Source: a virus. From it: 64,000 nt of DNA. Below are positions 2,233-63,313 of this stretch, piece by piece. Under the pieces are notes generated by a model. That model did no database searches. It was not told the origin of the DNA and saw only the letters and a program-made list of their open reading frames with translations. The stretch is from IMG/VR virus record IMGVR_UViG_3300012921_000081, positions 1,206 through 65,205 of that record; one strand, written 5' to 3'. Position numbers and translations under genes: made by a program. Each line of letters opens with the position of its first letter. Within the stretch, counting starts at the first letter, position 1.

Positions 2233-2576
2233 GGGGCCGAACCGGATTCGACCGGGCAGGGAAGACTTGTTGTGGCGCGTCCAGGAGCATGCCGGCCTGG
2301 TAAAAAGCATGCAACACATTGATTGCTGAGCGTAACTACGCACTCGCGGCCTAAGGCCGTGACGTTCCCCGACCGACGCCCGATAGGGCGGGGAACGAAG
2401 CATCGGGCTGGTCGTCGTGTGGTGCTCTCAGGCACGACGATGAGAAACTACTGTGGGCTGGACCAAAGGAAACGCTGTCGTTGGCGGTTCCGCGGTTGAC
2501 GACAAATCAACGACTACACGCGTAGAGGCGACCTGTTGACTGTCTCGGGACGGGGGTTCGATTCCCCCCGGCTCCA
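2233..2576 (+). ncRNA. ssrA: tmRNA (SsrA)
   Basis: 5' GGGGCCGAACCGGATTCGAC, 3' T-arm and acceptor GGGGGTTCGATTCCCCCCGGCTCCA, and an internal tag frame ending YALAA-stop. Confidence 0.96.
2325..2354 (+). other. tmRNA proteolysis-tag reading frame AERNYALAA*
   Basis: GCT GAG CGT AAC TAC GCA CTC GCG GCC TAA. Resume codon inferred by analogy to ANDENYALAA. Confidence 0.85.
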
Positions 2577-3804
2577 TTTCCCCGGAAGCATGCGTCCGAC
2601 CCTTGGGGTTGGACGCTGCTTCAACGGGTGGTTCACGTTTCTCCGCCGGAGATTGCTGAGGCCTCTTGGGCGGGAAAACTGCGAAACCACTCGGTGAGTC
2701 AGCAAGATTTGTCGGAAGGGGCAAGGCCTCAGCACCAACATCTTCGGCGATCTGGCCCCCGGGTGTCAAGTCCATTGGCTCTATTTTTCTGGCCCGCTCC
2801 ATAAACCCATTCAGCCGAGGCAGTTGGTTGGCAGCTTGGGCAAGCGGCAACAGACGCGGGTCCGTGTAGACGTCCATCGTGAGCTTCTCGTCGGTGTGCC
2901 GCATGAGTTTCCTGCGGACGTCGACGTCGATTCCTTGACGCGCCATCTGTGTGTTCACACCCTTCCGCCATCGGTGCCATTGGCCCTTCTCTCCAGCGAC
3001 CTCCTTACCGCGCGCGATGCCGACCGCCTTCATGTCGACTTCCAACGTGTGATGAGACGGCGCACGATCGAAGACCAGCTCGCCCTTGCTGTGGTTTCGC
3101 CAGTCCATCAACAGCGCGACGAGCTCCTCGTTCATCGGGATCAGGTCGTTTCGCTTGGACTTGTCGCCGGTGAGGCGCAGGACCTTCTTGGCGAGGTTGA
3201 TGTCTTCCCAACGCTGGCGCCGTGCCTCGCGATACCGCAGTCCGGACAATGCGAGAAAGCCATAAAACGTCGAGGCGAGCGGGCCCTTGTGTCTTGCCTG
3301 CCAGTTCTCCGCCTCGCGCTTCTCGGCGTTGAGGATGATGGCCTGCATCTGCTCCCACGTGAACGCATCTGCGCCCTTGCCTCGACGACACCGGGGCAGA
3401 CGGATCGCGTCAAACGGGTTGTTGGTGAAGTGGCGCTTCACTTCCAGATAGGCACCGAAGCAACGGACCTGACTGAGTTTGTTCTTCGCCGTCTTCGCGG
3501 CGCCCGGACCTCCAGCGTTGATCTGCTCGGAGAGCCAATCGACCAGACGGTCGGTGCAGAGATCTGCTGTTGTTGACCACTCGAGCTCGGCCGCGATCTG
3601 CCGAACCGTTCGAACGCTCTTGTCCGCATGCTGGCCACTGAACTGCAGCAGCCCGACCATGTGCTTACGCCAAAGTTTGAGCGCGTCCTCGATCGCGATC
3701 GGCGAGAGGCCGACGCGAACGGATGAAACAGGTTTGTCAGCAGCCTCGTGCTGCGGAGAGCATGCCTCCGCGTCCGACTGCGGAGGGGTTTGGCTCGGAG
3801 ACAT
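2428..3804 (-). CDS. int: Tyrosine recombinase/phage integrase; ORF reads through attL into antisense tmRNA
   Basis: Catalytic motifs LSGLRYREA (R), GDKSKR (K), WHRWRK (HxxR), LMRHTD (H), MDVYT (Y). Start taken at ATG 3804 (MSPSQ). Confidence 0.93.
   Translation of the reverse strand: MSPSQTPPQSDAEACSPQHEAADKPVSSVRVGLSPIAIEDALKLWRKHMVGLLQFSGQHADKSVRTVRQIAAELEWSTTADLCTDRLVDWLSEQINAGGPGAAKTAKNKLSQVRCFGAYLEVKRHFTNNPFDAIRLPRCRRGKGADAFTWEQMQAIILNAEKREAENWQARHKGPLASTFYGFLALSGLRYREARRQRWEDINLAKKVLRLTGDKSKRNDLIPMNEELVALLMDWRNHSKGELVFDRAPSHHTLEVDMKAVGIARGKEVAGEKGQWHRWRKGVNTQMARQGIDVDVRRKLMRHTDEKLTMDVYTDPRLLPLAQAANQLPRLNGFMERARKIEPMDLTPGGQIAEDVGAEALPLPTNLADSPSGFAVFPPKRPQQSPAEKREPPVEAASNPKGRTHASGEMEPGGIEPPSRDSQQVASTRVVVDLSSTAEPPTTAFPLVQPTVVSHRRA
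2551..2578 (+). repeat. attL core, 28 bp CGGGGGTTCGATTCCCCCCGGCTCCATT
   Basis: Identical copy at 63070-63097; corresponds to the tmRNA 3' end. Confidence 0.95.
2585..2622 (+). terminator. Strong GC hairpin directly 3' of tmRNA (phage-supplied); no U-tract
   Basis: GAAGCA-TGCGTCCGACCC-TT-GGGGTTGGACGC-TGCTTC folds into a long stem. Terminator function is inferred. Confidence 0.4.
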
Positions 3805-3840
3805 GTCGGACACGTTGACACAGGACGCGCGGCATGTCAA
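3805..3840 (-). promoter_or_regulatory. Putative integrase promoter overlapping a TTGACA-N14-TGTCAA palindrome
   Basis: Minus-strand TTGACA (3840-3835), 17-bp spacer, weak -10 CAACGT (3817-3812), ATG 7 nt later. Would imply a leaderless mRNA. Confidence 0.4.
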
Positions 3841-4347
3841 TACAAATCTTTGCTGTGCCTGCGCTTGCGAACAGCCGTTCAAATCGATCTCGATGCACAC
3901 CCGCAGCTCGTGAGGAGCCGTGTTCTGTCCTCCGCTCGGGGGACACGAGTCGGCTCCATTCTGGCGCGATGTATCACCTGGCCGCGATTGTCGCGGCTTG
4001 GGCGCGTGTTCATCCCATGGCATACCCCAGGCCCCTGACCCCAAGGCGTCAACACCGAATCGTCCATGATCCGGCCACAACCCAACGATGTCTTCAGGAA
4101 ATGCAACACTGCCGTCAAGAGCGATCAGTCACGCCCGACAGCGCGTCGCCTCACGTTACTCGCATGGACGAGCGACGTGAGCAAATAACGGATGCGGAAA
4201 ACCATGTGCTGACTTTTCGCAGAGTGAGCATGCGGGGGCTTACGCCTCACATGCGAGCACGGTTTCACGAATCATGAAGGCATCTTCACGCATCCACAAG
4301 TTCAGGTGATCGCCCCATCCGCTCGTGTGAAGCTGGGGAATTTCCGA

Positions 4348-15833: not shown

Positions 15834-16155
15834 GCATGCGCTCCTTGCGCACTCGGTGACTAGCCGAGTAATGTCAATCCCTTGAATGCGCATGCTAACT
15901 GCACGGCCGTCGGGCATCGCGATTTCCCGCTTTCGACGTCGATCGCAGGGCCGATGTGGACGGGGTGTGGAAACTTGACGGCCTGGCGCCAAGCTGATCC
16001 CTCAGAACTCTTGCATTTCTCCAACTCACGCGGCGGCGTTGCACCCTCAAGTACCAGTGCTTCCCCGGGGCTTGTTTCGTGCCCACTCCCGTGTTAGGGT
16101 GGAACCCACGCCCCGTGCGCCTCGCATGGGATAGGAGCCACCGGAGCCCCTCCCG

Positions 16156-36892: not shown

Positions 36893-37623
36893 CGGTTGGC
36901 TCCCATCGTGGCCGGCGTTTCACCGAAGAGGTATGGTGGGTTGACGTTGATGTATTCCCGTAGCCCCTGCGCCTCGGCCCAGGCGTACGCCACGGTTCGG
37001 TTGTGGACTTGGCACGGGTGGGTAAGGATGCTCTCCTCCCAGCGCGGACGATGCCGCTGGTGATACAGCACCGGTGGGAACGCACCTGCGTCAAACCCGG
37101 AGCGGAGCATCAAGACCTTGAGGACGAAGTCCCACCCTTCGAACCCGACGTGCAGGTTGGGGATCAACTCCAGGTTGTGATGCCACCACTCCCGCGTGAA
37201 TGCGAACAGGTCGGCGCCGCAGTAGGTGCCAAACCGGGGGAGATCCGAAAGCCGAAGCGGCGTGAACGCCTGCACGTCCACCCTCGGGGAGAAGTAGCAC
37301 CCGAACTTCTGCACCGCGGCTCTGATCACCGAGCCGGCCTCAATCACCGGAGCGACGTCGACGTTGGCGTAGACGATGATGTCGTCAGGCAATGACCTGC
37401 TGACTTGCTCGGCGCAGTTGAGGACATCTGCGATGAACGGAGGCTTTCCGTCCGGCGTGTTGGCACCCGCGTCCAGGCCCAAGTCCCAAAGGGCGACAGA
37501 GGTATCGTGCTGGGTCAGCCGCATTCGCTGGTTGTCAGCGAACGCGAAGCGCTCAGACTCGTCTTGGTCGCGCGGGGTGTAGCCGGCGATGCAGTAACGG
37601 ATCTCGCGGATCTGGTGGGGCAT
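36889..37623 (-). CDS. Putative GT-A-like nucleotide-sugar transferase
   Basis: IVYANVDV, RVDV, GADLFAFTREWW, GWDF, LYHQRH. Confidence 0.55.
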   Translation of the reverse strand: MPHQIREIRYCIAGYTPRDQDESERFAFADNQRMRLTQHDTSVALWDLGLDAGANTPDGKPPFIADVLNCAEQVSRSLPDDIIVYANVDVAPVIEAGSVIRAAVQKFGCYFSPRVDVQAFTPLRLSDLPRFGTYCGADLFAFTREWWHHNLELIPNLHVGFEGWDFVLKVLMLRSGFDAGAFPPVLYHQRHRPRWEESILTHPCQVHNRTVAYAWAEAQGLREYINVNPPYLFGETPATMGANR

Positions 37624-56137: not shown

Positions 56138-56214
56138 CGTGCTCGTCCAGGGAAGGCGGGGATAGAAAGCGACCCGCGCCGCCGGTAGACGGCGCGAGTG
56201 CGGAGGAGAGAGAG

Positions 56215-57306
56215 CTACTTGGTGGAGGCGACCTGCGTGCCAGGGCGAGGGCTCAGCGGCGACGTCGTGCGCGATTGGACCGATTCACGCGTTGCCTCAC
56301 CCCGCGCGGCGGAGGCCTGCTGCATGAAATCGTGTGTGGTGAAGTCGCCCGGCTTCGGGTAGGGAGCACCCTTCGAAAGCGCAACCTCGATTGCAATCGC
56401 CGCGGCCTCGCGGGCAGAGGCCTCCGCCTTCTCCTGTGTGCGGCCATCCGCCATGCACATAGGAAGTTCCTTGGTCCATCCGACGAACCCAACGTCCTTG
56501 TCTGGTTGGATGTGCAGCGTGTACTGGGCGGCGATCTCGCGTGCTCGCGCAAGTGAATCCTGAGACTTGTCAGTCGCCTGCGCCTTTTCAGCTACCTCGG
56601 CCATCATGCCGGCGACGGCCTCGGCCGCTGACCCGCGCGGCGGTGTTGTCGAGGGAGCGCTCGACGGATCCTCGTCGACTTCGCCGTCGGGGAAGAAATC
56701 AGAACCGGTGACGGTCGAGTAGATGTATGCCAGCATCTTCCGCGTTGCCTTGCCAAGGATGGCGTCGACGCCCTGGCCCTTGTTGGTGCGCACAGGGATG
56801 TCGCGATGCAGGTTCTTCTTCTCGCCTTTCAGTTGAAACTCGGCGTCGTACGGAACGACGGCACCCTCAGTCAGGACACGGGGAAGACCAGGCTTCATGA
56901 CGAGATCTGACAGGCCGGGATACTCGCGGACCAAGCGCGTGAAACCTTCGCGCGTGATGTACGTGCGTCCGGCGATGATGTTGAACTCGTTACCGACCGG
57001 CATTACGCCGCGAACGAGGGCCTCAAGCATGCAATCGCGGACGGTCTTGAGCGGATATCCCCCGTCGTCAGCGCGGTCCGTGCGGAACCCCAAGGGGGTG
57101 TCCTGCAGCTCCATGATGTCCAGCATCATCTTGTCACTCAAGTATCCGCGGATCATGCGGATGGCCTGTGACATCACAATGGCCTTCTTGATTGCGGGGA
57201 CCTGCGACAACGCAAGCTCTTTAGCGCTGTCGATGGTCTGCTGAATCTCGACGTACTGCGCTTCTGACTTGTCAGCGACCTTTGCCAACGTATTCGAATC
57301 GTTCAT
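56215..57306 (-). CDS. Putative single-strand annealing recombinase with C-terminal HicB-like domain
   Basis: Follows the RecE-like gene; GNEFNIIAGRTYITREG core; C-terminal YTLHIQPDKDVGFVGWTKELPMCMADGRTQEKAEASAREA (HicB-like). Confidence 0.6.
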   Translation of the reverse strand: MNDSNTLAKVADKSEAQYVEIQQTIDSAKELALSQVPAIKKAIVMSQAIRMIRGYLSDKMMLDIMELQDTPLGFRTDRADDGGYPLKTVRDCMLEALVRGVMPVGNEFNIIAGRTYITREGFTRLVREYPGLSDLVMKPGLPRVLTEGAVVPYDAEFQLKGEKKNLHRDIPVRTNKGQGVDAILGKATRKMLAYIYSTVTGSDFFPDGEVDEDPSSAPSTTPPRGSAAEAVAGMMAEVAEKAQATDKSQDSLARAREIAAQYTLHIQPDKDVGFVGWTKELPMCMADGRTQEKAEASAREAAAIAIEVALSKGAPYPKPGDFTTHDFMQQASAARGEATRESVQSRTTSPLSPRPGTQVASTK

Positions 57307-57411
57307 GTGTGGTTCCTTTCCCGCGAAAGTGCGGAAAGGGGCGTGATGGACTCGAACCATCAAGCGTGGCCAGAACCGTCGCTTCGGCACGACGGAACCC
57401 ACGCCCGCCCC
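57307..57411 (-). ncRNA. tRNA-like element A plus SD-sequestering hairpin (leader of SSAP gene)
   Basis: GGGGCG/CGCCCC closing stem, T-arm GATGG-TTCGAGT-CCATC, 74 nt; followed by CCTTTCCGC-N6-GCGGGAAAGGAACC-ACAC-ATG. Confidence 0.65.
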
Positions 57412-57416
57412 TCGAT

Positions 57417-58316
57417 TCAGTTGTGCGAGGGACCGCCTGTGTAGCGCGACGAGTAGTAAACCCGCAGGTCGATCGGCCGCACCCCAGTTGGGAGGCCGGG
57501 CCATTCACCGGTGCGCAGACACATTGCGTAGTCGTTGAGAGCGCCGCGATATTCCTTCGCCGCGTAGCCCCGCATCAGCGTGTCCACCTCGGTCGTCGGG
57601 TAGTACGCGGCGATCTTGTAGGGTGCGGAGTTCTGAATAGCGAACCACTGGCCTGGCACGTTCTCCCGTCCCAGGATCCGCAGACCTTCCTCCTGCATGT
57701 GATCCTGGATGTGATAGCCGTACTCCCCGATGCTCCGCGCAAATCCGTCGGGAGTTGGGTCAGCGCAGGACTTGAAGTCAACGCGCGTGCCAGCCTTGGA
57801 ACCCTTCGGCCAGATGATCATGTCAGCACGCGCCTTGCAGCGAACGCCAGTCTCGGGGTCCACCCACGTGAAACTCACTTCAACGTTGCAGTCACGACCG
57901 CCGGAGATCCGCTGCTCCATCATGGCGGAGATCTCCGGATGCTTCAGCATGTTCGCGCGAATGCGGCGGATCGCCTGGACATCGTCATCCCAGGCGATGA
58001 TCTTGCCCGGGTGCTTGGCCTGATAGTCCTTGACGCCTTGAGCGTCTCTGGTCTTGTAGATCTCACCATTCGGCTTTGGCGGAGGGGGAATCATCAGCGA
58101 CGGGAGCCGCTCGGGCTCAAGCATCGCGGCATGAAGCAACGTGCCGAAGGCCATCTGGTCCGAAGTCTTTTCCGCTTCGTCGAGGTGCTCACGGACGTCG
58201 GCCATCGACACCCGTGCCCACTTGAGGGCGGAGAAGTTGATGGCCTCCCATTCGTTGTACTCGTGAAATGGAACGCCGAAGTAGATGCCGGGTGGAGGGG
58301 GTGGTACACGATTCAT
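57417..58316 (-). CDS. RecE/exonuclease VIII-like PD-(D/E)XK nuclease (DUF3799-like)
   Basis: INFSALK, MAFGTLLHAAMLEP, EVSFTW..ETGVRCKARAD, DFKS, YGYHIQ. Confidence 0.88.
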   Translation of the reverse strand: MNRVPPPPPGIYFGVPFHEYNEWEAINFSALKWARVSMADVREHLDEAEKTSDQMAFGTLLHAAMLEPERLPSLMIPPPPKPNGEIYKTRDAQGVKDYQAKHPGKIIAWDDDVQAIRRIRANMLKHPEISAMMEQRISGGRDCNVEVSFTWVDPETGVRCKARADMIIWPKGSKAGTRVDFKSCADPTPDGFARSIGEYGYHIQDHMQEEGLRILGRENVPGQWFAIQNSAPYKIAAYYPTTEVDTLMRGYAAKEYRGALNDYAMCLRTGEWPGLPTGVRPIDLRVYYSSRYTGGPSHN

Positions 58317-58350
58317 GACGGGACCTTTCTTCATGGCGCGGAGTGACCGC

Positions 58351-58731
58351 TCACGCGCACTGGTTGGAAACGGGCTGTTGCTGAATGGCGATGACGCCAG
58401 CGATCGCGTCGAGCTCCGCGGCGAGTTGCTGCAGATCCGCCGCTTCGTACTTGGCCACGTGGCCAGCAATGTCACGAAGCGACCTGGCGACGCGCGCGAG
58501 GTTCTTGGCCTGGGATGACTGGCAGATCGCGGCGAACGCGTTGTTGGCCAAGGCCATGACGAACTCGCGTACTTCCGGGGTTGCGGATTCGAGAACACAC
58601 CGACCGCCGTAGTCGGTCGGCTCGTTCTCGTAGGTGGTTGGAGCGTGCCGACTGATAAGCGCATCGGCTTGGTGAGATTTAGACCACGGGAGATACAGCG
58701 GTGCCTGACCGGGAGCGGGGGGAGTGGTCAT
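58351..58731 (-). CDS. Hypothetical protein
   Basis: ORF track; ATGA overlap. Confidence 0.65.
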   Translation of the reverse strand: MTTPPAPGQAPLYLPWSKSHQADALISRHAPTTYENEPTDYGGRCVLESATPEVREFVMALANNAFAAICQSSQAKNLARVARSLRDIAGHVAKYEAADLQQLAAELDAIAGVIAIQQQPVSNQCA

Positions 58732-60647: not shown

Positions 60648-60853
60648 GCCGCACCCCCGACTACCTTGCCATTGCGACAGATCGCGATCACGGTCTCAGA
60701 GTGGAGGAGTGGACCTGCGGCGCACACGCGGAAGCTGCTGCAGTCGGATGGCTGGACCAGCATCACGGGGTCATGTGCGATTGCGGAACACGCGCGGGCA
60801 TGTGCCACTGCCAGGTCGAGCGAGTCAAACGTGGAAGGAAGGTGCTCGTTCAA
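60644..60853 (-). CDS. Small hypothetical protein
   Basis: ORF track; coupled. Confidence 0.6.
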   Translation of the reverse strand: MNEHLPSTFDSLDLAVAHARACSAIAHDPVMLVQPSDCSSFRVCAAGPLLHSETVIAICRNGKVVGGAA

Positions 60854-62181
60854 GCCGCACCTCCAGCCTGTGCCGCAAGGGTCTTGGTGCTGACAACGCG
60901 GCCTTCTTCCAGGATGATGTTCTGACCTTCCGCAGCCTTGGCTGTGGCGACTTCGAGGATGAGCTGGAAGCCGAACTGGTGAGCGAGGTCGCGCAACATG
61001 GCGATCGTCGGTCCCTGCATGACATCGGCGTCACGGAACAGCATCACGCGGAGGTGCGGAGACTGACGCATTGCCACGTGGGCCGACACCAGGATCTGCG
61101 TGGCGCGGTTCACCTGGCTGAACAGCACGCCGTTCACGCGGAGGTTGCCCTCATCGTCAAACGCCAGGCCCTTGACCGGGATCTTCGTGTTCTTCAGCAG
61201 TTCGCGCTTGCGCTCGCCGATGTCCTCGATGCGACGCTGCTGCTCTTCATACTGCCGCGCCTTGATATCACGCCGCTCCAGAAGCCGGCGACGCTCCTGG
61301 CGCTGCCGCGCGGTTCTGTTCAGTTGGTCGATCTCGCCAAGCTGCTTCTCAATTGCAGAGACATCCGGATCAATAAGCGCCTCAATGGTGGGAGCGACGG
61401 GGCCGAGATCGGCGACGGCCGCGGCGTGCTTAGCCTTAGCCGAAGCGAGCTCCCGCTCCAGGGATTCGATAATCGTCTCAATGCTCTTGATGGTGTTGCG
61501 GCTGTCAGCAAGCCACTGGCGCTGAAGGTTGTTGTCGCGGATCTTTGCAAGCGCGCTTGCGTGTTCCTCGCGCAGTTGAGCGGCGTTGGTTTCCTCGTCG
61601 GGACCCTTGATGTCTGGAACGAGCGTCAGAGCGCCCTCGATCGACTTGAGCTCGACACCGGCGTCGCGGCGGAGCATGGTCGCATCGGCGAGCGCCGTGT
61701 CGAGAGCGGCGAACGCATCGGTCAGCCCGAGGACACGCCGCATCTCGTCGGCCTGGTCGCGCGGCTTGAGCCGGTAGAACTCACCAACGTCAAAGCAGCG
61801 TTCTGCCCGGAGCAGTTCCAGGAACCGCTGCGGCGGCATGTCAATCGGATTGCCTTCGCTGTCGGTGATCTTGACGGTGCGCGTGCCCTTCGCGGTCTGT
61901 GTTGCAGAGACGGTGTAACCGCTCAGCTTCCCAAGCACCTTGCACTTGTCCGCACCGATGCGCACGGGCTCGACGTTCGTGCCGTTCTTCTCGCCGAGCA
62001 TGAACTGGATGGCGTCGAGGAATGAAGTCTTCCCGGATCCGTTTGGCCCGGATACTTCGACGGTGTCTGCCTCCAAGTCCACCTGCAGGAAGCGGATGCC
62101 CTGGAAGTTTTCAATCGTGAGAGCGATGAGCTGCTGCGGCGCGACGTCGGGTACGTTCGAATCAAGTGCCTTGCTGACCAT
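60850..62181 (-). CDS. SMC/Rad50-like AAA ATPase
   Basis: LTIENFQGI, GPNGSGKTS, long coiled coil, C-terminal ABC half with degenerate signature (FSQVNRATQ). Confidence 0.85.
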   Translation of the reverse strand: MVSKALDSNVPDVAPQQLIALTIENFQGIRFLQVDLEADTVEVSGPNGSGKTSFLDAIQFMLGEKNGTNVEPVRIGADKCKVLGKLSGYTVSATQTAKGTRTVKITDSEGNPIDMPPQRFLELLRAERCFDVGEFYRLKPRDQADEMRRVLGLTDAFAALDTALADATMLRRDAGVELKSIEGALTLVPDIKGPDEETNAAQLREEHASALAKIRDNNLQRQWLADSRNTIKSIETIIESLERELASAKAKHAAAVADLGPVAPTIEALIDPDVSAIEKQLGEIDQLNRTARQRQERRRLLERRDIKARQYEEQQRRIEDIGERKRELLKNTKIPVKGLAFDDEGNLRVNGVLFSQVNRATQILVSAHVAMRQSPHLRVMLFRDADVMQGPTIAMLRDLAHQFGFQLILEVATAKAAEGQNIILEEGRVVSTKTLAAQAGGAA

Positions 62182-62296
62182 TGTCTGGTTCCTTTCCCGC
62201 GGTATTGCGGAAAGGCGTGGGGAGGGGTCGAACCTCCCGGAGCCCGTGCGTCGTCCCGAAGAAGGTCTCGAAGGGACGACGTGCCCACACACGCCT
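62182..62296 (-). ncRNA. tRNA-like element B plus SD-sequestering hairpin (leader of SMC-like ATPase gene)
   Basis: AGGCGTG/CACGCCT 7-bp closing stem, T-arm GGGAGG-TTCGACC-CCTCCC; followed by CCTTTCCGC-N6-GCGGGAAAGGAACC-AGACA-ATG. Confidence 0.65.
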
Positions 62297-62314
62297 CAAT
62301 GCGTGTGGGGCTGA

Positions 62315-62845
62315 TCAGTTGTCGCGAGAGATCTGGGAGTCGCGGAGGCGGTCGTAGTCCTCGATCTCTGGCGCGGCGTCGCGTTCGTAGAACTTGCCGC
62401 AGTCATCACATTCGAGGCCGCCGTTGCATGCGGACATTCCGACTTCGGGATCCGCCTGCGATGGCGACGAATCAATGAACTTGGTGCAACCGCAATCGCC
62501 ACAGACGGGCGCGTCGAAGTCGAACTCGGGAGTTACCACAGGAGCGGAGACCTTGCGGGCGAAGGTCTTGATCACCTGGTCGGTGTCACGAAGGCGACGA
62601 AACAGCGCGGCATCGGCTTGGGTTCTGCAAGCTTGGCACAAGACAGCGCAGTACTCCCCGGAATCGCCGCGGCTGCCGGTGCTGAGCTTGCCGCACTCGA
62701 TGCAGGGGCGGAGAGAAACGGCCGGGGCAGGCGAGCCTTGCGACTCGCCCGCGCCCGGCACTCGGGGGGGGCGGCTGTAATCGGCGACGATCTTGGGAGC
62801 GATCACCCCAACGACCTCGTCGAGGTTCGCCTCGGCCCGGGTCAT
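62315..62845 (-). CDS. Multi-zinc-finger hypothetical protein (first early gene)
   Basis: CIEC...C...CQAC and CGDC...CDDC pairs; ATG at 62845. Confidence 0.6.
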   Translation of the reverse strand: MTRAEANLDEVVGVIAPKIVADYSRPPRVPGAGESQGSPAPAVSLRPCIECGKLSTGSRGDSGEYCAVLCQACRTQADAALFRRLRDTDQVIKTFARKVSAPVVTPEFDFDAPVCGDCGCTKFIDSSPSQADPEVGMSACNGGLECDDCGKFYERDAAPEIEDYDRLRDSQISRDN

Positions 62846-63069
62846 TGCCCCGTTCACGCGGGCGGCGGACCGGGCCAGCAGATCGGTCCCAAGACGCGCG
62901 GACGGGCAGACACGGTCGGGGATCAGGGCGGCGGGGAGGGCGGAACGGGAGGAGCGGGAGGGGCATTCCATGCCTGGCTTCCTTTCGGGAGCCGGAGGCA
63001 TGCTTCAAGGGTGTCCAAGGTCCGCCTATAGGCATCTAGGATGCCCAAGATGACCTCGGGTGATAGAGC

Positions 63070-63097
63070 CGGGGGTTCGATTCCCCCCGGCTCCATT
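63070..63097 (+). repeat. attR core (displaced tmRNA 3' end)
   Basis: 28/28 identical to 2551-2578. Confidence 0.95.
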
Positions 63098-63313
63098 GTT
63101 TCGCTTCAGCTTCACCGGCTTGGGGTGCGCGCGGGAAGCCTGTCGCGCAGATTTGCGCCCGCTCGATGGTGACGTCGCCGCCGTCCGCCAGCAGCTGTCC
63201 TGGACGAACCAGTATCACGGGTCCGACGAATCGACCGTGCCGCTGGCGTCGGTGTCGGTGTCCTTGCCGGTCGACGGCTCAGCGCGCGATCTGCTCGTCC
63301 GCCCGGTCGGCGG

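What the first reader, a model, noticed from the sequence alone, without database searches (positions are those of the whole stretch)
62182..62296. Second, sequence-divergent copy of the same tRNA-like leader architecture
Seen: before the SMC-like ATPase, a perfect 7-bp closing stem (AGGCGTG/CACGCCT), an internal GTCGTCCC/GGGACGAC arm and a T-arm GGGAGG-TTCGACC-CCTCCC, then the identical CCTTTCCGC-N6-GCGGGAAAGGAACC RBS hairpin. The stems differ in sequence from copy A but keep pairing, and only the N6 loop of the RBS hairpin varies. That amounts to internal covariation, which argues for selection on structure. Both copies gate DNA-recombination genes, suggesting coordinated post-transcriptional control of the recombination module.
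Basis: partly seen in the sequence, partly recalled or inferred. Interest (0 to 1): 0.85.

Follow-up and report, generated by a model that had tools for sequence, protein, structure and literature searches.

The report
Conserved tRNA-shaped RNA leaders in prophage
Two gaps between genes in this prophage's DNA-recombination operon each hold a real, conserved folded RNA that is partly tRNA-shaped and sits next to the ribosome-binding site; it is not a tRNA, no RNA database lists it, and it most likely controls cutting or translation of the message.

Summary
On the minus strand, 62296-62213 has a 7-bp closing stem, a long middle arm and a 6-bp T-arm-like hairpin. A UU linker, a CCGC-N6-GCGG hairpin, the Shine-Dalgarno (SD) sequence and the ATG of an SMC/SbcC-like ATPase follow. 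Copy A (57412-57307) lies between a RecE-like exonuclease gene and a Red-beta/RecT-like annealing-protein gene.

The bare architecture is common by chance here (84 matches against 74±8 in shuffles). The evidence is comparative:
- Eight distinct related phage contigs keep both copies at the same positions.
- Across 13 sequences the closing stem is 100% paired, with compensatory changes at 4 of 7 pairs.
- The T stem is 97% paired, with compensatory changes at 5 of 6 pairs.
- The gaps are better conserved than the flanking genes.

It is not a tRNA. ARAGORN finds none, Rfam gives only 22-23 bits to tRNA-Sec, there is no D arm or anticodon loop, and the T-loop sequence is lost in relatives.

In copy B a stronger upstream hairpin competes with the closing stem, and the freed strand can mask the SD.

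The best reading, which is inferred, is an intercistronic processing and translation-control signal like plant mitochondrial t-elements. No RNA data could test it. This scan noted similar tRNA-shaped modules in other phages, with no sequence similarity to this one.

The parts
62315..63001 (-). Upstream ORF (228 aa, Cys-rich, no family hit). It is the first gene after attR/attP, and its stop codon TGA is at 62317-62315.
   Evidence: relatives carry a 179-aa gene here
62284..62310 (-). Copy B 'anti-closing' hairpin (CCCCACACGC / loop ATTGAG / GCGTGTGTGGG). Its 3' strand overlaps the closing-stem 5' strand, and it starts 4 nt after the upstream stop codon.
   Evidence: Forms in the minimum-free-energy fold. 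Relatives have an analogous CGCACAC/GTGTGCG hairpin 2 nt after their stop codon.
62290..62296 (-). Copy B closing stem, 5' strand (AGGCGTG).
   Evidence: 100% paired in 13 sequences
62239..62289 (-). Copy B variable middle arm: a weak outer stem GGGC/GCUC plus an inner 9-bp hairpin with a 15-nt loop.
   Evidence: the sequence is entirely different in relatives but always forms a two-part hairpin
62220..62238 (-). Copy B T-arm-like hairpin (6-bp stem, loop TTCGACC). It abuts the closing 3' strand with no linker.
   Evidence: 97% paired, 5 of 6 pairs with changes on both sides
62213..62219 (-). Copy B closing stem, 3' strand (CACGCCT). Together with the following UU it can instead pair with the SD region.
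62197..62210 (-). Start-proximal hairpin CCGC-AATACC-GCGG, always 2 nt (UU, 62212-62211) after the closing stem.
   Evidence: Invariant stem in 13 sequences. L036 adds an A-U pair through a paired insertion.
62187..62196 (-). Extended Shine-Dalgarno box GAAAGGAACC (core AAGGA 62194-62190).
60850..62181 (-). Downstream gene: SMC/RecF/SbcC-like AAA_23 ATPase (443 aa), ATG at 62181-62179.
   Evidence: SMC_N, AAA_23; phrog_1499, phrog_77
57307..57416 (-). Copy A, the paralogous leader. Closing stem AGGGGCG 57412-57406 pairs with CGCCCCT 57343-57337. T-like arm 57362-57344 has loop TTCGAGT. Hairpin CCGC 57334-57331 pairs with GCGG 57324-57321. The SD box is 57320-57311.
57417..58664 (-). RecE-like exonuclease (DUF3799/PDDEXK) upstream of copy A. 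Its stop codon 57419-57417 lies 4 nt before the closing stem.
   Evidence: PF12684; phrog_412, exonuclease VIII
56215..57306 (-). Gene after copy A: probable single-strand annealing protein (Red-beta/RecT/Rad52-like N-terminal domain) with a weak C-terminal HicB-like segment.
56172..56199 (-). Terminator-like GC-rich hairpin just after gene A; probable end of this transcription unit.

Best explanation
SHOWN. Each leader is a conserved, sense-strand RNA structure inside a polycistronic recombination operon. It is a three-way junction made of a 7-bp closing stem, a variable long arm and a 6-bp T-arm-like hairpin. The T-like hairpin stacks directly on the closing stem, giving a 13-bp acceptor/T-like minihelix. 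After exactly two U residues come a GC hairpin, an extended Shine-Dalgarno box and the start codon.

INFERRED. The junction acts as a tRNA-shaped 'punctuation' signal, like a plant mitochondrial t-element. Host tRNA-maturation nucleases would cut at its edges, RNase P on the 5' side and RNase Z or a similar enzyme just after the closing stem. The downstream message would then begin with a protective hairpin 1-2 nt from its new 5' end and carry an exposed ribosome-binding site. This would uncouple the stability and translation of the ATPase and annealing-protein cistrons from the genes upstream.

The folded state also gates translation. When the closing stem is not formed, its pyrimidine-rich 3' strand (CCUUUCC) can pair with the SD. 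In copy B, a hairpin right after the upstream stop codon competes for the closing stem's 5' strand, so this masked form is the predicted ground state.
For: - Both copies are conserved at syntenic positions in 8 distinct related contigs.
- There are exactly two copies per phage record.
- In 13 sequences 94% of cells are paired, against 74.5% in shuffles. The closing stem is 100% paired with double changes at 4 of 7 pairs, and the T stem is 97% paired with double changes at 5 of 6. None of 500 shuffles and no slid register reach this.
- G·U pairs occur only in the sense orientation.
- A covariance model built from A-type copies alone finds the B-type copies at E 2e-12 to 2e-7.
- The elements are 91-97% identical where the flanking coding DNA is 57-80% identical.
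- The 0-nt T-stem/closing-stem junction, the 13-bp stack and the 2-nt spacing to the hairpin are invariant.
- Weak tRNA-Sec matches cover just the acceptor and T parts.
- In A-type copies the three-way junction is the minimum-free-energy fold, or within 2.7 kcal/mol of it, and leaves the SD free.
- Distant relatives without the element have overlapping or near-abutting genes instead.
- t-elements show that acceptor-plus-T-arm folds direct RNase P/Z cuts that define mRNA ends (PMC1920247).
Against: - There is no RNA evidence at all. The only runs holding this phage are contigs that are probably DNA.
- The T-loop sequence is not conserved. B relatives have a 6-nt GUCGAA loop, A relatives have UGCGAG or UUUGAG, and relatives give no tRNA-family hit.
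- There is no 3' CCA, the +1 base is A, and the -1 base varies.
- In copy B the tRNA-like fold is predicted to be 3-15 kcal/mol worse than the alternative fold.
- The alignments used for pair counts were fitted to the model, and the sequences come from one narrow phage group.
- SD masking has thermodynamic support only. Its register differs between lineages, so it cannot be tested by covariation.
Confidence: 0.4

Rival explanations
1. The leader is a purely conformational translational relay with no tRNA-enzyme involvement, working like ermC/trp-type 1:2, 2:3, 3:4 alternative pairing. Segment 1 is the hairpin strand after the upstream stop codon. Segment 2 is the closing 5' strand, segment 3 is the closing 3' strand plus UUU, and segment 4 is the SD. 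A ribosome terminating on the upstream gene covers segment 1 in copy B, or segment 2 in copy A, and so decides whether the SD is open. The two inner hairpins only bring the closing strands together.
For: - In B-type copies the minimum-free-energy fold has the anti-closing hairpin plus an extended SD-masking helix.
- Masking a ribosome footprint at the upstream stop codon switches L025, L027 and L031 to the closed junction with a free SD.
- The anti-closing hairpin starts 2-4 nt after the stop codon in both B lineages, although its sequence and register differ.
- In A-type copies, blocking the closing 5' strand makes the 3' strand pair with the SD.
- Element-less relatives couple these genes by a 4-nt overlap.
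Against: - It does not explain selection on the T-like hairpin's exact abutment, the conserved xxCRA loop core, or the two-part middle arm.
- It predicts opposite coupling signs for copies A and B.
- With B_win, the footprint mask did not yield the closed form.
- It rests on folding predictions only.
Confidence: 0.25
2. The structured RNA has another function: a cis-acting processive antiterminator (like HK022 put), a binding site for a phage or host protein (an autoregulatory operator), or a stable trans-acting tRNA-sized small RNA.
For: - There are two conserved structured copies in an early operon that ends in a terminator-like hairpin.
- Sequence-level invariance of CUUUCCGCA...CGCGG goes beyond what the structure needs.
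- The SD box is more alike between paralogues within one genome than between orthologues. This hints at a shared trans factor or at gene conversion.
Against: - No Rfam family matches.
- The fixed position against the SD and ATG points to translation or processing rather than to RNA polymerase modification.
- No candidate binding protein was identified.
Confidence: 0.12
3. It is a DNA-level feature: a conserved 'linker' where phage modules recombine, or a captured tRNA/tmRNA attachment-site remnant, with the RNA fold being incidental.
For: - A mosaic breakpoint lies inside the element in L035. Upstream it is 99.7% identical to L032, and downstream 88% identical to L005.
- The phage integrates at the tmRNA T-arm/acceptor end.
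- The element is more conserved than the flanking genes.
Against: - Compensatory double changes, a paired insertion and sense-only G·U pairs are not expected for a DNA homology linker.
- Similarity to the att core is only loose.
Confidence: 0.07
4. It is a genuine but unusual decoding tRNA, or a neutral decayed tRNA pseudogene.
For: - Window copies carry GGTTCGANNCC and a 7-bp acceptor-like stem.
- ARAGORN at 80% stringency forces cloverleaves on some copies.
Against: - ARAGORN at default settings finds none, and the relaxed 'anticodons' disagree between orthologues.
- Scores are 22-23 bits against a 47-bit threshold.
- There is no D arm, no 7-nt anticodon loop and no CCA.
- Conservation above that of the coding flanks, together with compensatory changes, excludes neutral decay.
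Confidence: 0.03
5. The region is coding: an N-terminal extension of the downstream genes. ORFs 60850-62292 and 56215-57504 are open through the elements.
For: Both frames are open upstream in the window.
Against: - Intergenic lengths fall in all three mod-3 classes.
- Six relatives have an in-frame stop codon 15 nt before the ATG.
- An SD lies at the right distance from the ATG, and the protein alignments start at that ATG.
Confidence: 0.01

Closest known systems
t-elements of plant mitochondria (tRNA-like processing signals; Forner et al. 2007, PMC1920247)
   Same: Both are non-decoding folds that keep an acceptor-like stem and a T arm and are embedded in mRNAs next to coding regions. The window copies even carry the GGTTCRANYCC motif used to find t-elements.
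   Different: This is a bacterial prophage, not an organelle. Relatives lose the T-loop motif. The minihelix is 13 bp rather than 12 bp, and the fold is fused to a conserved hairpin and SD box. Cleavage has not been shown here.
RNase P-processed phage and operon RNAs (P1/P7 C4, P4 CI, phi80 M3, and intercistronic RNase P sites in E. coli operons). Recalled from memory, not checked here.
   Same: Both involve tRNA-like or minihelix-like folds inside phage or polycistronic transcripts that tRNA-maturation enzymes could use.
   Different: There is no sequence or Rfam similarity, no antisense function is evident, and there are two paralogous copies tied to start codons.
Translational attenuation relays (ermC leader, trp-type alternative hairpins) and SD-masking intercistronic hairpins
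   Same: Both have mutually exclusive pairings in which a ribosome on an upstream ORF could free a strand that decides whether the downstream SD is masked.
   Different: There is no leader peptide. The sensor would be the terminating ribosome of a full-length gene, and a conserved three-way junction lies between segments 2 and 3.
Start-Associated Sequences / Extended SAS of Cluster K mycobacteriophages (Pope et al. 2011, PMC3203893)
   Same: Both have a conserved extended-SD box a few nt before ATG starts of non-structural genes, with conserved bases beyond 16S pairing and an upstream inverted repeat. The relatives' box GGTAGGAGCC resembles the SAS GGGATAGGAGCCC.
   Different: SAS occurs many times per genome (93 sites across the six Cluster K genomes), whereas this motif occurs twice. 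The SAS consensus is not enriched in the window: 12 matches against 17 expected. The ESAS authors found little support for RNA pairing, and pairing here is well supported.
tRNA-Sec (RF01852) and the tmRNA tRNA-like domain
   Same: All share a 13-bp acceptor/T stack and a long extra arm. The acceptor, long-helix and T-arm three-way layout resembles the tmRNA tRNA-like domain.
   Different: Scores are far below threshold (23.3 and 21.9 bits against 47). There is no anticodon arm, no CCA and no tag reading frame, and ARAGORN's tmRNA mode is negative.

Membership tests
tRNA (canonical; ARAGORN / Rfam RF00005) | Detected by tRNA finders at their normal thresholds | tested here: not met
   ARAGORN finds 0 genes in the window and in all 13 elements. 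There is no RF00005 hit even at E up to 10.
tRNA (canonical; ARAGORN / Rfam RF00005) | Cloverleaf with a D arm and a 5-bp anticodon stem with a 7-nt loop, conserved between orthologues | tested here: not met
   A single two-part arm has loops of 6-15 nt. ARAGORN at relaxed settings gives conflicting anticodons (tct, aca, acg, undetermined).
tRNA (canonical; ARAGORN / Rfam RF00005) | T loop U54-U55-C56-R57-A58 in a 7-nt loop | tested here: inconclusive
   Met in both window copies (TTCGACC, TTCGAGT). Relatives have GTCGAA (6 nt), TGCGAGY, TTCAAGT and TTTGAGC. Only R57 and A58 are invariant.
tRNA (canonical; ARAGORN / Rfam RF00005) | 7-bp acceptor plus 5-bp T stem (12-bp stack), discriminator base and CCA (or a CCA-addition site) | tested here: not met
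   The stack is 7+6 = 13 bp in nearly all copies, and the closing stem is followed by UUCCGC.
tRNA-Sec (RF01852) | Score at or above the 47-bit gathering threshold | tested here: not met
   23.3 bits (E 0.017) and 21.9 bits (E 0.042). No hit in relative L031.
Plant-mitochondrial-type t-element (functional class) | Non-canonical tRNA-like fold keeping an acceptor stem and a T arm with GGTTCRANYCC | tested here: inconclusive
   The fold is met in all copies. The motif is met only in the two window copies.
Plant-mitochondrial-type t-element (functional class) | mRNA 5'/3' ends coincide with the edges of the element, and RNase P/Z cleave it | not testable with these tools
   No RNA reads exist for this phage; the available runs are contigs and probably DNA.
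SD-sequestering leader / translational attenuator | SD paired in one conserved conformer and free in an alternative conformer | tested here: inconclusive
   B-type copies are masked in the minimum-free-energy fold, and A-type copies are free in it. Both alternatives are predicted in every sequence. The register differs between lineages, so no covariation test is possible.
Cluster K SAS/ESAS | 13-bp GGGATAGGAGCCC box repeated many times per genome before non-structural genes | tested here: not met
   12 matches at up to 3 mismatches against 17.3 expected. The two leaders match only at 3 mismatches.
Intrinsic terminator | GC-rich hairpin followed by a U tract | tested here: not met
   The scan reports no terminator at 62182-62314 or 57307-57416 on the minus strand. 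Only 3 U residues follow the closing stem.
Any Rfam 15 family | Match at the gathering score | tested here: not met
   Only the host tmRNA (2233-2579) passes in the window.

The most novel reading that the evidence does not exclude
The tRNA-shaped junction is a sensor rather than a passive cut site. It reads whether a ribosome is terminating on the upstream cistron, or binds a tRNA-recognising host or phage factor, and converts that into opening or closing of the downstream ribosome-binding site. The polarity would be opposite at the two positions: positive coupling before the ATPase and negative coupling between exonuclease and annealing protein. This would set the order and stoichiometry of a phage recombination machine. 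It would be a new class of intercistronic riboregulator built on a tRNA-like scaffold, possibly part of a wider and still undescribed set of non-decoding tRNA-shaped modules in phage operons.
Probability: 0.2. Interest if true: 0.75.

Novelty: new variant of a known kind. Interest (0 to 1): 0.55.

Why it matters
Structured RNAs inside phage operons are poorly catalogued. This motif has clear comparative support, two paralogous copies per genome and a defined position in a RecE/RecT-like recombination module. It also has a testable link between a tRNA-shaped fold and the ribosome-binding site.

If host tRNA-maturation enzymes punctuate phage messages here, tRNA-punctuation-type mRNA processing, best documented in organelles, would also apply to temperate phages of uncultured bacteria. 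It would also explain why non-decoding tRNA look-alikes keep turning up in phage genomes. If it is a ribosome-sensing relay, it would be a new way to set protein ratios in an operon.

Practically, a covariance model now exists with which the family can be searched for in metagenomes.

Tried and rejected
- **Phage GenBank collection:** blastn of the region found no match.
- **Pattern scans:** exact-pattern scans of viral, genome and metagenome collections for the hairpin and SD motif found only the window and one relative. The other hits were chance, namely a Chitinophaga coding sequence and unrelated contigs.
- **Protein-seeded locus search:** The search for related loci in genome contigs found no confirmed relative. 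Gene A in viral contigs found none either.
- **Alignment:** MAFFT alignments of all copies together misaligned the 5' strands. Model-guided alignments were used instead, and these lean towards the model.
- **Third copy:** the 18.5-bit hit at 37174-37288 lies in a coding region and has no T arm.
- **RNA evidence:** none is available. The 'RNA-Seq' wastewater runs are contigs and probably DNA.
- **Rejected readings:** coding extension, true tRNA or tmRNA, terminator and SAS membership.
- **Ribozymes:** no hammerhead, twister or other ribozyme family hit at E up to 10.
- **Gene A:** a sequence search against PDB gave only a weak HicB hit. The fold search was needed.
- **Earlier findings:** a look-up by sequence found nothing.

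Full report
**Context**

The window is an IMG/VR provirus record. A tmRNA gene lies at 2233-2579 on the plus strand (154 bits). Its last 28 bases are repeated at about 63069-63098. A tyrosine integrase gene lies inside the ORF 2428-4080 on the minus strand, next to the tmRNA end. So a prophage of about 60.5 kb fills almost the whole window.

The finding lies at the right end of the prophage, where all genes run on the minus strand. In transcription order they are:
- a 228-aa Cys-rich ORF (63001-62315);
- leader B;
- an SMC/RecF/SbcC-like ATPase (62181-60850);
- three small or unknown genes;
- a RecE-like DUF3799 exonuclease (58664-57417);
- leader A;
- a 363-aa gene (57306-56215);
- a terminator-like hairpin (56199-56172).

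An AlphaFold model of the 363-aa protein's N-terminal 250 residues has a mean pLDDT of 86.9. Its best solved-structure matches are lambda Red-beta, phage RecT, Rad52 and Mgm101. The E-values are weak, but the Foldseek probabilities are 0.9-1.0. Its homologues follow DUF3799 or YqaJ exonucleases in other phages, and in one case (P0016) are fused to a DUF3799 exonuclease domain. The statement that both leaders precede recombination genes therefore holds.

**Observation**

Copy A has the same layout with different stems. From CCTTTCCGC to GGAACCA the two copies differ only in the 6-nt hairpin loop.

Is it more than chance? The bare geometry is not. A 7-bp stem closing on an abutting 6-bp hairpin occurs 84 times in the window, against 74±8 in shuffles. 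With a TTCGA loop required, only these two sites remain. Shuffles average 0.10, and reach 2 or more in 1 of 500. Folding z-scores are -5.5 for B and -3.0 for A over the full gaps, but only about -2.2 for the cores. The window alone is suggestive, not decisive.

**Comparative evidence**

The ATPase has seven close homologues (67-75% identity) and the 363-aa protein has five (52-54%). These lie on eight distinct contigs. All contigs that reach the junctions keep a gap of about 112-114 nt before the ATPase and about 106-114 nt between the exonuclease and the annealing protein.

Parsing the first 11 of the 13 non-identical gaps gave the same anatomy every time:
- a closing stem paired 7 of 7;
- a variable middle arm;
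- a T-like stem paired 5-6 of 6, joined to the closing 3' strand without a linker;
- UU, then CCGC-N6-GCGG, an SD box, 5-9 nt, and ATG.

The two further A-type gaps (L035, L036) were placed on the same anatomy by the model alignment.

A covariance model built only from A-type copies finds window B at 55 bits (E 2e-12) and the B relatives at 36-41 bits. It finds exactly two copies per phage record.

On the 13-sequence model-guided alignment:
- 94.0% of cells pair, against 74.5% in shuffles;
- the closing stem is 100% paired, with changes on both sides at 4 of 7 pairs (GC/CG, CG/UA, GC/AU twice, with a G·U intermediate);
- the T stem is 97.4% paired, with double changes at 5 of 6 pairs;
- no shuffle and no slid register comes near (for subsets).

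L036 lengthens the start-proximal hairpin by an A-U pair through a paired insertion. G·U pairs appear only in the sense orientation. Among relatives the gaps are 91-97% identical where the adjacent coding DNA is 57-80% identical.

Two caveats apply. The alignment is fitted to the model, and all sequences come from one narrow phage group.

More distant relatives lack the element. The 28%-identical ATPase has a 16-nt gap, and two annealing-protein homologues overlap their exonuclease gene by 4 nt.

**What it is not**

- **Not coding.** Gap lengths fall in all mod-3 classes, and six relatives have an in-frame stop codon 15 nt before the ATG.
- **Not a tRNA or tmRNA.** ARAGORN finds nothing at default settings, and relaxed settings give inconsistent anticodons. 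Rfam gives only tRNA-Sec at 23.3 and 21.9 bits against a 47-bit threshold, aligned over the acceptor and T parts. A relative gives no tRNA-family hit at all.
- **T-loop sequence not conserved.** It is TTCGANN in the window. Relatives have GTCGAA, TGCGAGY, TTCAAGT or TTTGAGC, and only the R-A at loop positions 4-5 is constant. What is conserved is geometry: a 13-bp coaxial closing/T stack and a long two-part third arm.
- **Not a terminator**.
- **Not in Rfam**.
- **Not a Cluster K SAS/ESAS system.** The relatives' SD box resembles the SAS consensus, but that consensus is not enriched in the window.

**Alternative folds**

In the six A-type sequences folded, the three-way junction is the predicted minimum-free-energy fold, or within 2.7 kcal/mol of it, and the SD is unpaired. 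If the closing 5' strand is blocked, the closing 3' strand plus UUU pairs with the SD.

In B-type sequences, including the copy under review, a hairpin starts 2-4 nt after the upstream stop codon and uses the closing 5' strand as its own 3' strand. The predicted ground state has this hairpin plus an extended SD-masking helix. The tRNA-like form is 3-15 kcal/mol less stable. Masking a ribosome footprint at the upstream stop codon flips three of the five B sequences to the closed junction with a free SD. These are predictions only. The masking register differs between lineages, so covariation cannot test it.

**Mechanism**

I commit, at about 0.4, to a tRNA-shaped punctuation signal. Enzymes that recognise the acceptor/T minihelix by shape would cut at the junction edges. 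The invariant two-nucleotide spacing then places the GC hairpin 1-2 nt from the new 5' end, where it would act as a stabiliser, with the SD just downstream.

The closest documented analogue is the plant mitochondrial t-element (PMC1920247). RNase P-processed phage RNAs are a looser analogue, recalled from memory. The selection on the T-like arm's abutment and loop core argues for recognition of shape rather than a mere spacer.

The main rival (about 0.25) is a purely conformational relay of the ermC/trp type driven by the terminating ribosome. The two readings are compatible. Other functions (antitermination, protein operator, trans-acting RNA) and a DNA-level recombination linker are less likely, though a mosaic breakpoint does fall inside the element in L035.

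**Novelty**

I found no paper describing such a tRNA-shaped module fused to an SD hairpin in phage operons. Earlier AI notes of this scan describe non-decoding tRNA-shaped modules in two other phages (e1-5328030, e1-3459338). Those notes are unchecked, and there is no sequence similarity to this element.

I rate this a new variant of a known kind: real and conserved, with its function inferred and untested.

Noticed in passing
window 2551-2580 and 63069-63098: A 28-bp identical core (the tmRNA T-arm and acceptor 3' end) marks attL and attR of a prophage of about 60.5 kb. A tyrosine integrase ORF (within 2428-4080, minus strand) abuts attL. The tmRNA tag reads AERNYALAA.
   Followed up: partly
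window 63097 (read laying, runs X3 and X4): Wastewater contigs run from the attR phage side straight into the sequence that follows attL on the phage side. That is the attP junction of an excised or circular form, so the phage appears to be active in those samples.
   Followed up: no
window 2233-2579: ARAGORN reports no tmRNA in the window, although Rfam's tmRNA model scores 154 bits over its full length.
   Followed up: no
L025:259-275, L027:6232-6248, L031:4089-4105 (minus strand): The related phages carry the same tmRNA-type T-arm core, antisense, inside the 3' end of their integrase genes. They probably also integrate at ssrA, with attP overlapping int.
   Followed up: no
L035:2207-2317 compared with L032 and L005: A mosaic recombination breakpoint lies inside the A-type element. 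L035 is 99.7% identical to L032 upstream and 88% identical to L005 downstream, with the switch between the closing stem and the middle arm.
   Followed up: partly
window 57299-57473 compared with 57231-57298: A variant strain in the wastewater runs shows 10 substitutions and 2 indels in the first 68 nt of gene A. It shows none across leader A or the end of the exonuclease gene.
   Followed up: no
window 56215-57306 (minus strand): The N-terminal domain of the 363-aa protein models confidently (pLDDT 87). Its best fold matches are Red-beta, RecT, Rad52 and Mgm101. Its C-terminal part (residues 261-327) weakly resembles HicB. In one metagenomic protein (P0016) this domain is fused to a DUF3799 exonuclease.
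   Followed up: partly
window 56172-56199 (minus strand): A 12-bp GC-rich hairpin with a T-rich tail lies directly after gene A. It is the likely end of the recombination transcription unit.
   Followed up: no
window 57310-57324 and 62186-62200, compared with relatives: The SD box is more alike between the two paralogous leaders of one genome than between orthologues. The window has GGGAAAGGAACC twice, and relatives have GG(G)TA(A)GGAGCC twice. This suggests gene conversion or co-adaptation to a shared factor.
   Followed up: no
window 16128-16140 (plus strand): There is a one-mismatch match (GGGATAGGAGCCA) to the Cluster K mycobacteriophage SAS consensus. It is isolated and was not examined further.
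   Followed up: no
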